DNA from: a virus
Taxonomy: Duplodnaviria; Heunggongvirae; Uroviricota; Caudoviricetes
Length of the DNA stretch: 64,000 nt
Direction: 5' to 3' (one strand)
IMG/VR virus record: IMGVR_UViG_3300033994_001334
Location: 1 to 64,000 of that record
Below, piece by piece: positions 28,600-29,536 of this stretch. A program made the position numbers and the translations under genes. The stretch's first letter is position 1. Each line of letters opens with the position of its first letter. The notes under the pieces were generated by a model. The model was not told where the DNA came from and searched no databases. It saw only the letters and a program-made list of their open reading frames with translations.

Positions 28600-28681
28600 C
28601 ATCACCTATTAATTTTAAAAATAATTTTGAAATTACAAATATATTTACTTATCTTTGTAATGTTCTTTGAAAATATAATGT

Positions 28682-29390
28682 GGCTATGTGAGTCTCCGAG
28701 AGGATAACCTTTACCTACTATAATTGACTACGGAGTGGTGTTATTTTAGGTCTTAGAGAAGGTGAAAGTATTGGTGCAAATGTCTTACTTCTAACATACA
28801 ACTATCAGATACAACGTTAGACGCACAATTCTCCACATAAACTTATTGACGGCTATGTACCGGGTTACTTCTAAAACAATGGATGTTATCATACTCATAC
28901 TCTTTCCGTCTAAAAAATATTAAGTGGCTATCTATTAACTTACTTCTAACTTTAAATCTAAATTAAAAATTAGTTGTAGTCTTCCCACTTTAAAAAAATT
29001 AATGGCTATATGTTTGGTTACTTCTATCTTCACTTTTAATGAACCAATTACCAACATAATTCCCATTTAACTTAGTTCTTTGATAAAAAATATTTGATGG
29101 CCACAATTTGTCTTACTTCTAAATTGGTTATTATAGGTTCGAATCCTATAGAATCCTCAAAAGGGATTTTATTATAGATAATTAATTTCCATCAAAAAAT
29201 CTTTTACTGGCTATGAGTTGTATGTTTCATGGTATATTGAAACATATGAGAGTTACTTCTAAAAAACAAAAATAAAGCAAAAAACTCACTCGCTCAATTT
29301 CCGGTATATTTTGGGGAGGTAGCTCAGCGGTAGAGCACGTATTACTGGTTTAATTTCTGTAAATGCGGCTATAATCTAAGTTACTTCTTA
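28682..29390 (+). repeat. array of 7 direct bipartite repeats GGCTAT-N8-TTACTTCTAA (two copies carry 45- or 98-nt inserts in the N8 position)
   Basis: GGCTAT at 28682, 28851, 28926, 29004, 29098 (GGCCAC), 29209 and 29366. TTACTTCTAA 14 nt downstream, or after an insert. Each is preceded by an A6TAT-like tract. No ORFs. Confidence 0.6.
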
Positions 29391-29435
29391 GGCTGTTAAC
29401 CTCGTGGTCGTGGCGTTCGAATCCCACCCTCCCCG
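29313..29435 (+). pseudogene. second tRNA-Asn(GTT) gene split by a 50-nt insertion (29338-29387) between D-arm and anticodon arm; the insertion carries repeat copy 7; T-stem has a 1-nt insertion
   Basis: 5' half GGGGAGG-TA-GCTC-AGCGGTA-GAGC-A. 3' half TTAGG-CTGTTAA-CCTCG…GTGGcG-TTCGAAT-CCCAC-CCTCCCC-G. Confidence 0.5.
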
Positions 29436-29536
29436 CAAAGACTGTTATTCCTTTTATAGACGATATGGTAAAACATGCTTCGAGCATAGAAAGGAAAAAT
29501 TAAACAAATAAATAACAACAATTTAAAACAACAATT

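What the first reader, a model, noticed from the sequence alone, without database searches (positions are those of the whole stretch)
28620..29440. ORF-free array of seven bipartite GGCTAT-N8-TTACTTCTAA repeats with promoter-like A6TAT tracts
A 0.8-kb non-coding stretch carries seven direct copies of a 24-nt unit. Each unit has a conserved 6-nt head (GGCTAT, once GGCCAC), exactly 8 variable nt, and a conserved 10-nt tail (TTACTTCTAA). In copy 1 the variable position is expanded by a 98-nt insert; in copy 6 by a 45-nt insert containing a perfect 9-bp hairpin (tatgtttca/tgaaacata). Every copy is preceded at about −7 to −20 by an A-rich tract (TAAAAAATATT-like). The same A4TAT tail ends the conserved leader found directly in front of the tmRNA-like gene and the tRNA islands. 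The array is launched by a TAtcTTTG + TGTTCTTTGAAAATAT element at 28650-28676 and contains a stray tRNA T-arm (TAGG-TTCGAAT-CCTA, 29131-29149). Copy 7 lies inside a tRNA-Asn gene. The tail TTACTTCTAA resembles the anticodon loop region of the phage tRNA-Arg(TCT) (…caCTTCTAAtg). It is not CRISPR-like: the conserved parts flank a fixed 8-nt variable core and spacing is irregular (75-169 bp). Possible interpretations: a family of short promoter-driven sRNAs sharing 5'/3' ends, a small non-autonomous insertion element that targets tRNA-like DNA, iterons for a bipartite DNA-binding protein (origin or pac site), or anticodon-loop decoys.
Basis: seen in the sequence. Interest (0 to 1): 0.8.

Follow-up and report, generated by a model that had tools for sequence, protein, structure and literature searches.

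The report
Y-RNA-like small RNA gene array
The repeats are real and belong to seven small structured RNAs sharing one conserved handle; they lie beside a previously unrecognised Ro60-like protein gene, a pairing found from phages to Actinobacteria that resembles the Ro60–Y RNA particle.

Summary
The 24-nt repeat is only the 5' half of a larger RNA module.

Both helices covary strongly across 69 distinct copies.

Payloads are pieces of tRNA:
- an anticodon-arm-like hairpin (U4);
- a T-arm plus acceptor-like hairpin (U5);
- complete circularly permuted tRNA-like bodies in relatives.

Copy 7 is the same module in the opposite permutation, a closed arm inserted in the anticodon stem of a tRNA-Asn-like gene.

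The array adjoins homologues of the upstream 691-aa gene wherever I looked:
- many uncultured phages;
- phages XacN1, Xoo-sp13, Weasels2 and RcXuper;
- Puia, Aureispira and four Dactylosporangium genomes.

Best reading: Y-RNA/YrlA-like RNAs for a new TROVE-like protein, inside a phage RNA-repair and translation gene set. Binding and function are inferred. No Rfam family matches. The main rival is a cut-and-rejoin (splicing or circularisation) cassette.

The parts
26524..28599 (+). 691-aa protein gene, the proposed RNA partner. The helical part is TROVE/Ro60-like; the C-terminal domain has the TerD fold.
28626..28670 (+). Promoter-like region and conserved leader of U1: TTTG (28626-28629), 20-nt gap, TAtcTTTG (28650-28657), then GTTCTTTGA (28662-28670).
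   Evidence: Read from the sequence. Exact GTTCTTTGA also precedes tRNA-Phe, tRNA-Met, U5 and the tmRNA. The Bacteroidetes -33/-7 consensus is from general knowledge. The transcription start is not determined.
28678..28838 (+). U1 RNA. P1 AUGUGG/CCACAU; head 28682-28687; a 97-nt structured insert sits at the P2 bulge position (28688-28784); tail 28785-28794; N7' GACGCAC 28820-28826; CC 28833-28834.
   Evidence: RNAalifold on 11 orthologues: 11 of 24 pairs carry compensatory changes inside the insert.
28848..28910 (+). U2 RNA. P1 GACGG/CCGUC; N8 GTACCGGG; tail 28865-28874; N7' CTCATAC 28894-28900. P2 is weakened in this lineage but intact in relatives (GTACCGGG/CCCGTAC).
28922..28990 (+). U3 RNA. 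P1 AAGUGG/CCACUU; P2 CTATTAAC/GTTGTAG (28973-28979); small hairpin payload.
   Evidence: Compensatory change in L070: CCATACAC/GTTATGG.
29001..29067 (+). U4 RNA. P1 AAUGG/CCAUU; P2 ATGTTTGG/CCAACAT (29051-29057). The payload hairpin TTCA-CTTTTAA-TGAA resembles the anticodon arm of the phage tRNA-Lys(UUU).
   Evidence: Nearly the same payload is found in Xanthomonas phage XacN1.
29075..29083 (+). Second copy of the GTTCTTTGA leader, ahead of U5.
29093..29196 (+). U5 RNA. P1 UUUGAUGG/CCAUCAAA (8 bp); P2 AATTTGTC/GATAATT (29177-29183). The payload is a T-arm (29132-29150) followed by an acceptor-like hairpin (29151-29169). This is a YrlA-like, permuted partial tRNA mimic.
   Evidence: P2 covaries in orthologues: ATTTTGTC/GACAAAT, TGACCTTG/CAAGTCA, AGCTTGTG/CACAACT.
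29205..29306 (+). U6 RNA. P1 UACUGG/CCGGUA. The 5' strand of P2, GAGT..GAG, is interrupted at the bulge by a 9-bp hairpin (29221-29246). Tail 29253-29262; N7' within CTCACTCGCTC (29285-29295).
   Evidence: The L071 orthologue lacks the hairpin: GAGTTGAG/CTCGCTC.
29313..29435 (+). tRNA-Asn(GTT)-like gene carrying the module as a closed arm. The 50-nt insert (29340-29389) lies between anticodon-stem positions 28 and 29. Order within the insert: UA, N7' CUGGUUU, AAUUU, P1 CUGU-AAAU-GCGG, CUAU, N8 AAUCUAAG, UUACUUCUU.
   Evidence: ARAGORN calls tRNA-Asn after the insert is removed. Acceptor and T stems covary among window, L070, L071, L078 and L087, while the insert stays in place. P2 is compensated in Phe/Gln-type relatives: UGUAUGGG/CUCAAUA versus UGUCAGAG/CUCGAUA.
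24482..26365 (+). Context: Band-7/SPFH protein gene immediately upstream of the TROVE-like gene.
   Evidence: Pfam PF01145, E 1e-25. Band-7 proteins were predicted to pair with a tRNA-like RNA in RNA-repair loci (as cited in bioRxiv 10.1101/312249).
30118..30837 (+). Context: calcineurin-like metallophosphoesterase gene.
   Evidence: Pfam PF00149, E 9.6e-15. A metallophosphoesterase also follows the unit directly in Dactylosporangium, L216 5097-6110.

Best explanation
The array encodes six free-standing small non-coding RNAs (about 63-161 nt) and one tRNA-embedded copy. All are built on one conserved handle.

The handle consists of:
- P1, a terminal helix of about 5 bp formed by the RNA's own 5' and 3' ends (NNGG:CCNN);
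- an asymmetric internal loop (CUAY opposite NNUUU);
- P2, a 7-bp helix with a one-nucleotide bulge (N8:N7');
- a junction presenting single-stranded UUACUUCU opposite (R)UYA.

Beyond the handle sits a variable payload, usually a piece of tRNA: an anticodon-arm-like hairpin, a T-arm plus acceptor hairpin, a whole permuted tRNA-like body, or a whole tRNA-like body with free ends when the handle is inserted as a closed arm.

I propose that the handle is the docking site for the protein encoded next door, a Ro60-like (TROVE-fold) ring fused to a TerD-fold domain. The payloads would then tether or gate that protein towards tRNA-recognising factors, as Y RNAs and YrlA do for Ro60. In this phage the particle would serve tRNA/RNA quality control or repair during infection. 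Other relevant genes in the window are a kinase, a cREC domain protein and a T4 Rnl1-type RNA ligase, plus a Band-7 protein, a metallophosphoesterase, 25 tRNAs, tmRNA and SmpB.

Shown here: the RNA structure, its conservation, the gene linkage and the protein fold similarity. Inferred: transcription boundaries, RNA-protein binding and the biological role.
For: Structure:
- I used a box-anchored, ungapped alignment of 69 distinct units that was not fitted to the structure.
- 73.8% of cells pair, against 54.0 +/- 1.2% in shuffles and 38-48% when partners are slid.
- The covariation score is 0.535 against 0.194; 0 of 500 shuffles reach it.
- P2 alone is 81.3% paired against 48.8 +/- 2.0%.
- In an independent permutation test, 32 of 66 units have 6/6 pairs, against a mean of 2.4 and a maximum of 8.
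- G-U outnumbers A-C 11 to 2, so the helix belongs to the + strand RNA.

Linkage, from protein-seeded searches that did not use the RNA:
- 6 of 6 bacterial genome loci carry a unit beside the gene: Puia, Aureispira and four Dactylosporangium.
- At least 6 of 9 GenBank phages do too: XacN1, Xoo-sp13, Weasels2, RcXuper, MT835874 and LR745208.
- Other loci show the same adjacency: L014, L020, L022/L045, L043, L092, L145 and L147.

Protein fold:

tRNA mimicry:
- The payload order T-arm, acceptor hairpin, D-arm occurs in L043, Weasels2 and RcXuper. This is the order described for YrlA (PMC4201824; bioRxiv 10.1101/312249).
- The tRNA-like bodies at the orthologous position keep one D-arm but carry GTT, GAA, TTG or GTA anticodons. 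Decoding tRNAs are not expected to vary this way.

Context:
- RNA ligase, kinase and cREC genes, and Band-7 and a metallophosphoesterase.
- A tRNA nucleotidyltransferase lies beside the gene in RpAliso; genes annotated only as nucleotidyl transferase lie beside it in XacN1, Xoo-sp13 and RcXuper.
Against: - No Rfam Y RNA or YrlA match, and the YrlA motif GNCGAAN0-1G is absent.
- Single-sequence folding energies are no better than shuffles, with z from +0.08 to -1.86. The structure rests on covariation alone.
- There are no expression, end-mapping or binding data.
- The tRNA-embedded copies keep a perfect 7-nt anticodon loop and stem. That would also fit a spliced intron.
- Three GenBank phages with a homologue (SCTP-2, RpAliso, LpeD) showed no unit with my crude pattern.
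Confidence: 0.6

Rival explanations
1. The handle is a processing cassette, equivalent in logic to the archaeal bulge-helix-bulge. It brings two cleavage sites together, one after UUACUUCU and one before N7'. An endonuclease cuts both and a ligase rejoins the payload ends. That would remove the 50-nt insert from the tRNA-Asn-like gene. It would circularise permuted tRNAs, which RNase P and RNase Z would then open, and it would release small circles from the other units.
For: - One geometry explains both the intron-like copies and the permuted copies.
- Removing the insert restores canonical tRNAs for Asn, Phe, Gln, Tyr and Leu.
- Anticodon loops and stems are intact and conserved: AGGCTGTTAACCTCG is identical in five Asn-type relatives.
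- The phage encodes a T4 Rnl1-type ligase, a kinase, a cREC cyclic-phosphate domain and a metallophosphoesterase.
Against: - The distance from the tail to the inferred exon boundary varies from 0 to 3 nt. The insertion point also differs, 28/29 versus 31/32.
- No endonuclease candidate was identified.
- Conserved units with trivial payloads (U2, U3, U6) would yield 25-35-nt circles with no obvious use.
- The same tRNA body carries four different anticodons in close relatives. The L088 'Tyr' body is class I, whereas bacterial tRNA-Tyr is class II (general knowledge).
- The Dactylosporangium copies carry no tRNA part at all.
Confidence: 0.2
2. The RNAs are decoys or sensors for host nucleases that attack tRNA anticodon loops. 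The tail (CUUCUAA, the tRNA-Arg UCU loop) and the payload hairpins (for example the tRNA-Lys-like CUUUUAA loop in U4) would soak up or report cleavage. The neighbouring protein and the repair enzymes would deal with the damage.
For: - The tail equals the phage tRNA-Arg(TCT) anticodon loop. The core of the U4 hairpin, TCA-CTTTTAA-TGA, equals the phage tRNA-Lys anticodon arm.
- In L214 the tail sits directly in the anticodon-loop position.
- RNA repair genes are present in the window.
Against: - The tail is closed by a helix on only one side.
- The U4-type loop sequence varies among orthologues: CUAUUAA, CUGAUUA, CUUCAAC.
- The same tail is kept in Actinobacteria and Proteobacteria, next to the same protein and regardless of host. 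That points to a protein-binding element rather than mimicry of a host-specific tRNA.
Confidence: 0.08
3. The module is a small mobile, intron-like insertion that spreads into tRNA genes. The array would then be a graveyard of decayed insertions with no function of its own.
For: The module occurs inside tRNA-like genes with different anticodons. Array composition changes between close relatives: U5 is present in L064 and absent in L065, and hairpins are swapped.
Against: - Orthologous units persist, with compensatory substitutions, across relatives with 76-96% protein identity and in other phyla.
- Specific payloads are conserved between a Bacteroidota-type phage and XacN1.
- The module is strictly linked to one protein gene.
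- No copies occur elsewhere in the 64-kb window.
Confidence: 0.05
4. The repeats act as DNA: iterons of an origin or pac site, or a set of phage promoters.
For: They are direct repeats in an ORF-free, AT-rich region.
Against: - The two variable segments covary as antiparallel helices, with G-U tolerated and A-C avoided.
- Spacing is irregular.
- One copy lies inside a tRNA-like gene.
- The motif is confined to this locus in the window and follows one gene into bacterial chromosomes.
Confidence: 0.02

Closest known systems
Ro60 (Rsr) with Y RNAs, especially the bacterial and phage YrlA class (Chen et al. 2014, PMC4201824; Wang et al. 2018, bioRxiv 10.1101/312249)
   Same: - One to several small RNAs are encoded beside a ring-shaped TROVE-fold protein.
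- The RNA ends pair into a stem that carries a conserved, bulged protein-binding region.
- The distal module mimics tRNA in the permuted order T-arm, acceptor stem-loop, D-arm.
- The locus is associated with RNA-repair genes.
- The system occurs in both bacteria and phages.
   Different: - The protein has no detectable sequence similarity to TROVE and carries a TerD-fold domain where Ro60 has vWA.
- The RNA handle (GGCUAY, UUACUUCU, UUUCC) is unrelated to the Ro60-binding helix or to the GNCGAAN0-1G motif, and no Rfam model matches.
- The arrays are larger, up to 8 units.
- Some copies are inserted as closed arms into otherwise complete tRNA-like genes. I know of no Y RNA described in that form.
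[quoted passage not shown]
   Same: A tRNA-like non-coding RNA is predicted next to a Band-7 protein in RNA-repair neighbourhoods. Here a Band-7/SPFH gene (24482-26365) sits directly upstream of the locus, which ends in a tRNA-like gene.
   Different: I could not read the original paper, so sequence or structure identity was not tested. Here the conserved partner across phyla is the TROVE-like/TerD gene, not Band-7.
Archaeal bulge-helix-bulge introns, and the circularly permuted or split tRNA genes of Cyanidioschyzon merolae and Nanoarchaeum (general knowledge)
   Same: One helix-based motif appears both as an insert in the anticodon arm and as the leader-trailer pair of a permuted tRNA gene.
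   Different: There is no 3-4-3 bulge-helix-bulge geometry and no splicing endonuclease homologue was identified. The hosts are bacteria and phages. Many units carry no tRNA. Splicing is unproven.
Phage T4 stable RNAs 'species 1 and 2' (rnaC, rnaD) in the tRNA gene cluster (general knowledge)
   Same: Small stable RNAs of unknown function are encoded with phage tRNAs and probably share their transcription and processing signals.
   Different: No sequence or structural relation was tested, and T4 has no linked TROVE-like protein that I know of.

Membership tests
Y RNA / YrlA (Ro60-associated RNAs) | Encoded adjacent to a Ro60/TROVE-domain protein gene | tested here: inconclusive
Y RNA / YrlA (Ro60-associated RNAs) | 5' and 3' ends pair into a stem that holds a conserved, bulged protein-binding helix | tested here: met
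   P1 and P2 covary. P2 carries a one-nucleotide bulge and is flanked by invariant single strands.
Y RNA / YrlA (Ro60-associated RNAs) | Match to the Rfam Y RNA or YrlA covariance models; presence of the GNCGAAN0-1G motif | tested here: not met
   No Rfam hit at the gathering threshold or at E up to 10 in the array, nor in bacterial copies at E up to 1. The motif is absent from the unit consensus.
Y RNA / YrlA (Ro60-associated RNAs) | Distal tRNA-like domain in the order T-arm, acceptor stem-loop, D-arm | tested here: met
   Complete in L043; when re-permuted, ARAGORN calls a tRNA. Also complete in Weasels2 and RcXuper. Partial in window U5: T-arm plus acceptor hairpin, no D-arm. Absent from U2, U3 and U6.
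Y RNA / YrlA (Ro60-associated RNAs) | Physical binding to the Ro60-type protein | not testable with these tools
   Needs RIP, CLIP or EMSA.
Group I intron in a tRNA gene (the only tRNA intron type I know of in bacteria and phages) | A catalytic core of roughly 200 nt or more matching RF00028 | tested here: not met
   The insert is 50 nt. RF00028 hits only 31268-31482, in the tmRNA gene.
Archaeal-type BHB intron | Two 3-nt bulges separated by a 4-bp helix at the splice sites | tested here: not met
   By inspection of the Asn, Phe and Tyr junctions no such motif forms. The conserved helix is 7 bp with one bulge.
CRISPR array | Near-identical repeats of fixed length and regular period with unique spacers; cas genes nearby | tested here: not met
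   Spacing is irregular at 75-169 nt. The conserved parts are bipartite and pair with downstream sequence. No cas-like gene was found among the neighbours I annotated.
Iterons / DNA-binding repeat array | Conservation acts on the duplex DNA sequence, without strand-specific RNA-type covariation | tested here: not met
   Compensatory changes occur in both helices, with G-U 11 versus A-C 2.

The most novel reading that the evidence does not exclude
The handle, with the TROVE-like/TerD protein, is a protein-dependent RNA cut-and-rejoin system in Bacteria and their phages. It would excise the handle from intron-like tRNA genes and circularise permuted tRNA genes, then seal them with phage Rnl1-type ligase. 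It would be a counterpart of archaeal and eukaryal tRNA splicing, and the first non-group-I tRNA splicing pathway in the bacterial world.
Probability: 0.13. Interest if true: 0.95.

Novelty: new variant of a known kind. Interest (0 to 1): 0.8.

Why it matters
If correct, this defines a second, widespread Ro60/Y-RNA-type ribonucleoprotein.

- The protein family has about 2,855 clusters at 50% identity. It had no assigned RNA-related function in the sources I could search.
- The RNA family matches no Rfam model.
- The RNAs show tRNA mimicry in both circular permutations, including a module grafted onto complete tRNA-like bodies. That bears on how Y RNAs evolved from tRNAs.
- It bears on what Ro60-type rings do in bacteria, which is still largely unknown.
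- It bears on how large phages protect or repair the translation apparatus against tRNA-targeting defences.

Cultured carriers make it directly testable: Xanthomonas phage XacN1, Rhodococcus phage Weasels2, Rhodobacter phage RcXuper and Dactylosporangium species.

Tried and rejected
- **Nucleotide search of GenBank phages** with 28000-30200 found no match.
- **Rfam**, at the gathering threshold on the whole window and at E up to 10 on the array, gave only noise (snoRNA and plastid UTR hits).
- **Micro-ORFs:** reading frames hit stops, so I rejected this by inspection.
- **N8 pairing with the sequence immediately after the tail** (an anticodon-arm mimic around UUACUUCU) works only for window U5 and the Asn-type inserts. 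I rejected it as the general structure in favour of N8:N7'.
- **GUGAG:CUUAC and UCUAAC:GUUAGA pairs** proposed by RNAalifold for U1 never vary, or break in 2 of 11 sequences. I did not adopt them.
- **First pairing test:** an unanchored best-partner search had too high a background (991 of 2060 shuffles were perfect). I replaced it with the box-anchored tests.
Only L144, L145 and L147 were real.
- **tmRNA:** ARAGORN did not call it even after trial removal of the group I intron. I defined it by BLASTN to relatives instead.
- **The 150-aa downstream gene** (phrog_2574) gave no functional clue and is absent from the bacterial loci.
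Full report
**1. Observation**

The stretch 28600-29536 has no ORF of 60 aa or more. It carries seven + strand copies of GGCTAY...TTACTTCTWW.

Five copies have an 8-nt middle segment, starting at 28851, 28926, 29004, 29099 and 29367. Copy 1 has a 97-nt middle (28688-28784). Copy 6 has a 38-nt middle that includes a 9-bp hairpin.

The pattern with up to 3 mismatches occurs 7 times in the window against 0.89 expected, and no shuffle reaches 7.

Copy 7 lies in a tRNA-like gene, 29313-29435. Removing 29340-29389 gives a 73-nt sequence that ARAGORN calls tRNA-Asn(gtt).

**2. Conservation**

A nucleotide search of GenBank phages found nothing. IMG/VR holds 31 loci encoding the downstream 150-aa protein, at 47-100% identity. 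Nearly all carry the same kind of array upstream of that gene. A pattern scan also found arrays in unrelated large phage contigs.

**3. The real unit: two covarying helices**

Comparing orthologous units showed that the 'variable 8 nt' pairs with a 7-mer downstream (7 bp plus a one-nucleotide bulge). That 7-mer lies 5 nt before a conserved CC, in the box NNUUU-CC(A/G).

Examples of the pairing:
- ATGTTTGG/CCAACAT, GTGTTCAG/CTGACAC, GTGATTAG/CTAACAC, GTATTCAG/CTGATAC;
- AATTTGTC/GATAATT, TGACCTTG/CAAGTCA.

To avoid fitting the alignment to the structure, I anchored the 3' half only on the box.
- 32 of 66 distinct units have 6/6 fixed pairs. Permuting partners 2000 times gave a mean of 2.4 and a maximum of 8.
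- On the ungapped alignment A3, 81.3% of cells pair, against 48.8 +/- 2.0% in shuffles and 31-46% when partners are slid.

A second helix, P1, joins the nucleotides just 5' of GGCUAY, together with its GG, to the box CC and the nucleotides after it. Examples are ACGG/CCGU, GUGG/CCAC, AUGG/CCAU and UUUGAUGG/CCAUCAAA. In Dactylosporangium it extends to GGCGAGG/CCUCGCC.
- Its three variable inner pairs are paired in 57, 56 and 48 of 69 units, with many double changes.
- Over both helices, 73.8% of cells pair against 54.0 +/- 1.2%, and the covariation score is 0.535 against 0.194 (0 of 500 shuffles).

G-U outnumbers A-C 11 to 2, so the structure belongs to the + strand transcript. Single-sequence folding energies are unremarkable, so the case rests on covariation.

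The large inserts of U1 and U6 sit exactly at the P2 bulge. The U1 insert is itself a covarying domain.

**4. Payloads and permutation**

Between the tail UUACUUCU and N7' lies a variable payload.
- In U4 it is a 4-bp hairpin with loop CUUUUAA. Its core, TCA-CTTTTAA-TGA, equals the anticodon arm of the phage tRNA-Lys. The same payload occurs in Xanthomonas phage XacN1.
- In U5 it is a T-arm followed directly by an acceptor-like hairpin.
- In L043, Rhodococcus phage Weasels2 and Rhodobacter phage RcXuper it is a full tRNA-like body in the permuted order T-arm, acceptor hairpin, D-arm. Re-permuting the L043 copy gives an ARAGORN tRNA call.

In the tRNA-embedded copies the module appears in the opposite circular permutation:

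N7' – AAUUU – P1 closed by a tetraloop – CUAU – N8 – tail.

It is inserted at anticodon-stem position 28/29 in the Asn type, or at 31/32 in the Phe, Gln and Tyr types.

P2 is still compensated there: L064 has UGUAUGGG/CUCAAUA and L065 has UGUCAGAG/CUCGAUA. The tRNA acceptor and T stems covary among relatives. So both arrangements encode the same object, a tRNA-like body whose anticodon arm is extended by the P2-loop-P1 handle.

**5. Transcription context**

Exact GTTCTTTGA occurs six times on the + strand. Five copies lie ahead of a stable-RNA gene: tRNA-Phe, tRNA-Met, U1, U5 and the tmRNA start at 30893. The sixth, at 19551, lies just after tRNA-Ser(TGA). Several are preceded by a TAnnTTTG-like box.

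The array is therefore part of the phage's stable-RNA transcription units. Exact RNA ends are not known. The A-rich tracts between units are linkers plus P1 strands.

**6. The linked protein**

Homologues of the upstream 691-aa ORF flank the arrays wherever I looked.
- Downstream of the gene: this phage group, L003, L145, L147 (a bacterial contig, next to secA) and four Dactylosporangium genomes.
- Upstream of the gene: L014, L020, L022/L045, L043 and Aureispira.
- On both sides: the Puia MAG.

The genome-contig search was seeded by protein only, and 6 of 6 loci carry a unit. In GenBank phages, also protein-seeded, at least 6 of 9 do.

Outside the Bacteroidota-type phages the motif reads GGCCAY-N7/8-UUCCUUCU...UUUCC, with P1 and P2 preserved.

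The protein has no Pfam hit. It has a partial NCBIfam match to the MXAN_6230/SCO0854 family. The family comprises 2,855 clusters at 50% identity.

Full-length structural relatives exist in Lactobacillus phage LpeD and in Campylobacter phages.

**7. Interpretation**

Four features reproduce the Ro60-YrlA arrangement described by Chen et al. 2014 (PMC4201824) and Wang et al. 2018 (bioRxiv 10.1101/312249):
- a TROVE-like ring protein;
- small RNAs encoded next to it;
- RNA ends that pair into a bulged stem with invariant single strands;
- distal modules that mimic tRNA in the order T, acceptor, D.

The window also encodes a kinase, a T4 Rnl1-type RNA ligase and a cREC cyclic-phosphate domain protein (6472-8411). 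A Band-7 protein gene lies directly upstream and a metallophosphoesterase gene downstream. The window also holds 25 tRNAs and SmpB and a tmRNA gene.

In proteobacterial phages the gene sits beside a nucleotidyltransferase gene, annotated as tRNA nucleotidyltransferase in RpAliso. In Dactylosporangium a metallophosphoesterase gene follows the RNA. This is the RNA-repair neighbourhood in which Ro60/Y RNA and the predicted Band-7-associated tRNA have been placed.

I therefore read the array as Y-RNA-like partners of a new TROVE-like/TerD protein. Binding and role are inferred.

**8. Main rival**

The same geometry could be a cut-and-rejoin cassette that splices the tRNA inserts and circularises the permuted tRNAs.

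In favour: intact, conserved anticodon arms and the presence of ligase and end-healing genes.

Against:
- The tail-to-exon distance varies (0-3 nt) and the insertion point differs.
- No endonuclease was identified.
- Conserved units, including the Dactylosporangium ones, carry no tRNA part.
- The orthologous tRNA-like body keeps the same D-arm while carrying GTT, GAA, TTG or GTA anticodons in close relatives.
- The L088 'Tyr' body is class I, whereas bacterial tRNA-Tyr is class II. The window's own tRNA-Tyr is 85 nt.

These points fit mimics better than decoders, but they do not exclude splicing.

**9. Novelty**

No Rfam 15 family matches any copy. My literature searches found no description of a TROVE-TerD protein or of this RNA. 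The Burroughs and Aravind 2016 paper, which may touch related loci, was not available.

I rate this a new variant of a known kind, a Ro60/Y-RNA-like RNP. There is a modest chance that it is something more unusual.

Noticed in passing
window 30893-~31494 (intron ~31285-31472); HNH endonuclease ORF 31501-32022 (-): The phage tmRNA gene appears to be interrupted in its T-loop by a group I intron. BLASTN aligns 30893-31284 to positions 1-405 of the uninterrupted tmRNAs of relatives. The T-arm and acceptor 3' end resume after the Rfam RF00028 hit at 31268-31482. An HNH endonuclease gene lies just downstream on the other strand. ARAGORN and the Rfam tmRNA models do not call this gene.
   Followed up: partly
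window 6472-8411: An RNA repair cassette: an AAA_33 kinase-like protein (6472-6933), a T4 Rnl1-type RNA ligase (6935-7978) and a cREC cyclic-phosphate-processing domain protein (7896-8411).
   Followed up: partly
window 23465-26365: An RNase H-like protein (23465-23992), SmpB (23992-24417) and a 627-aa Band-7/SPFH protein (24482-26365) lie between the tRNA islands and the TROVE-like gene. A phage-encoded SmpB together with a tmRNA is unusual.
   Followed up: no
window 17666, 18975, 19551, 21385, 28662, 29075, 30878: A conserved leader, GTTCTTTGA (GGTCTTTGA at 21385), often follows a TAnnTTTG-like box. It precedes the stable-RNA genes: tRNA clusters, U1, U5 and the tmRNA. It looks like a dedicated start or leader for stable-RNA transcription units.
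   Followed up: partly
L064 vs L065 (IMG/VR contigs 3300034061_006793 and 3300027808_000224): Two near-identical phages (150-aa protein 96% identical) carry the same module-bearing tRNA-like body. After insert removal one reads Phe (GAA) and the other Gln (UUG). The N8, N7' and anticodon-loop segments all differ between them.
   Followed up: partly
L064, L070, L071, L078, L083 (for example L070 2399-2473): Relatives carry a tRNA with anticodon CUA, which ARAGORN labels 'Pyl'. This is a potential amber suppressor. The window itself has none among its 25 tRNAs.
   Followed up: no
window 29004-29067 vs L220 (Xanthomonas phage XacN1) ~1957-2020: The U4 payload (TTCACTTTTAATGAACCAATTAC) is almost identical in XacN1 (TTCACTTTTAATGAAACCGATAC), although the hosts are from different phyla. 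A second payload type containing AAUUGG also recurs, in the window's U2 and in L002, L006, XacN1, RcXuper and Weasels2. Individual paralogues therefore seem to have conserved, distinct roles.
   Followed up: partly
L220, L221, L225, L226 (XacN1, RcXuper, Xoo-sp13, RpAliso): In proteobacterial phages the TROVE-like/TerD gene lies next to a gene annotated as nucleotidyl transferase (as tRNA nucleotidyltransferase in RpAliso), and next to tRNA genes.
   Followed up: no
window 14522-16420 (-), 20371-20931 (+): Proteins with T9SS Por_Secre_tail sorting domains and an SprB repeat point to a Bacteroidota host, as does the TAnnTTTG promoter-like box. The closest cellular hit of the 691-aa protein is in a Puia sp. 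MAG.
   Followed up: no
L088 ~5000-5120 (IMG/VR 3300029286_001115): A structured-looking segment of about 120 nt, ending in a T-arm and acceptor-like 3' end, lies between two units (ggtggcgaaaatggaaaacgccctggcgagc...gtaggttcgacccctacccgaac). ARAGORN does not call it.
   Followed up: no
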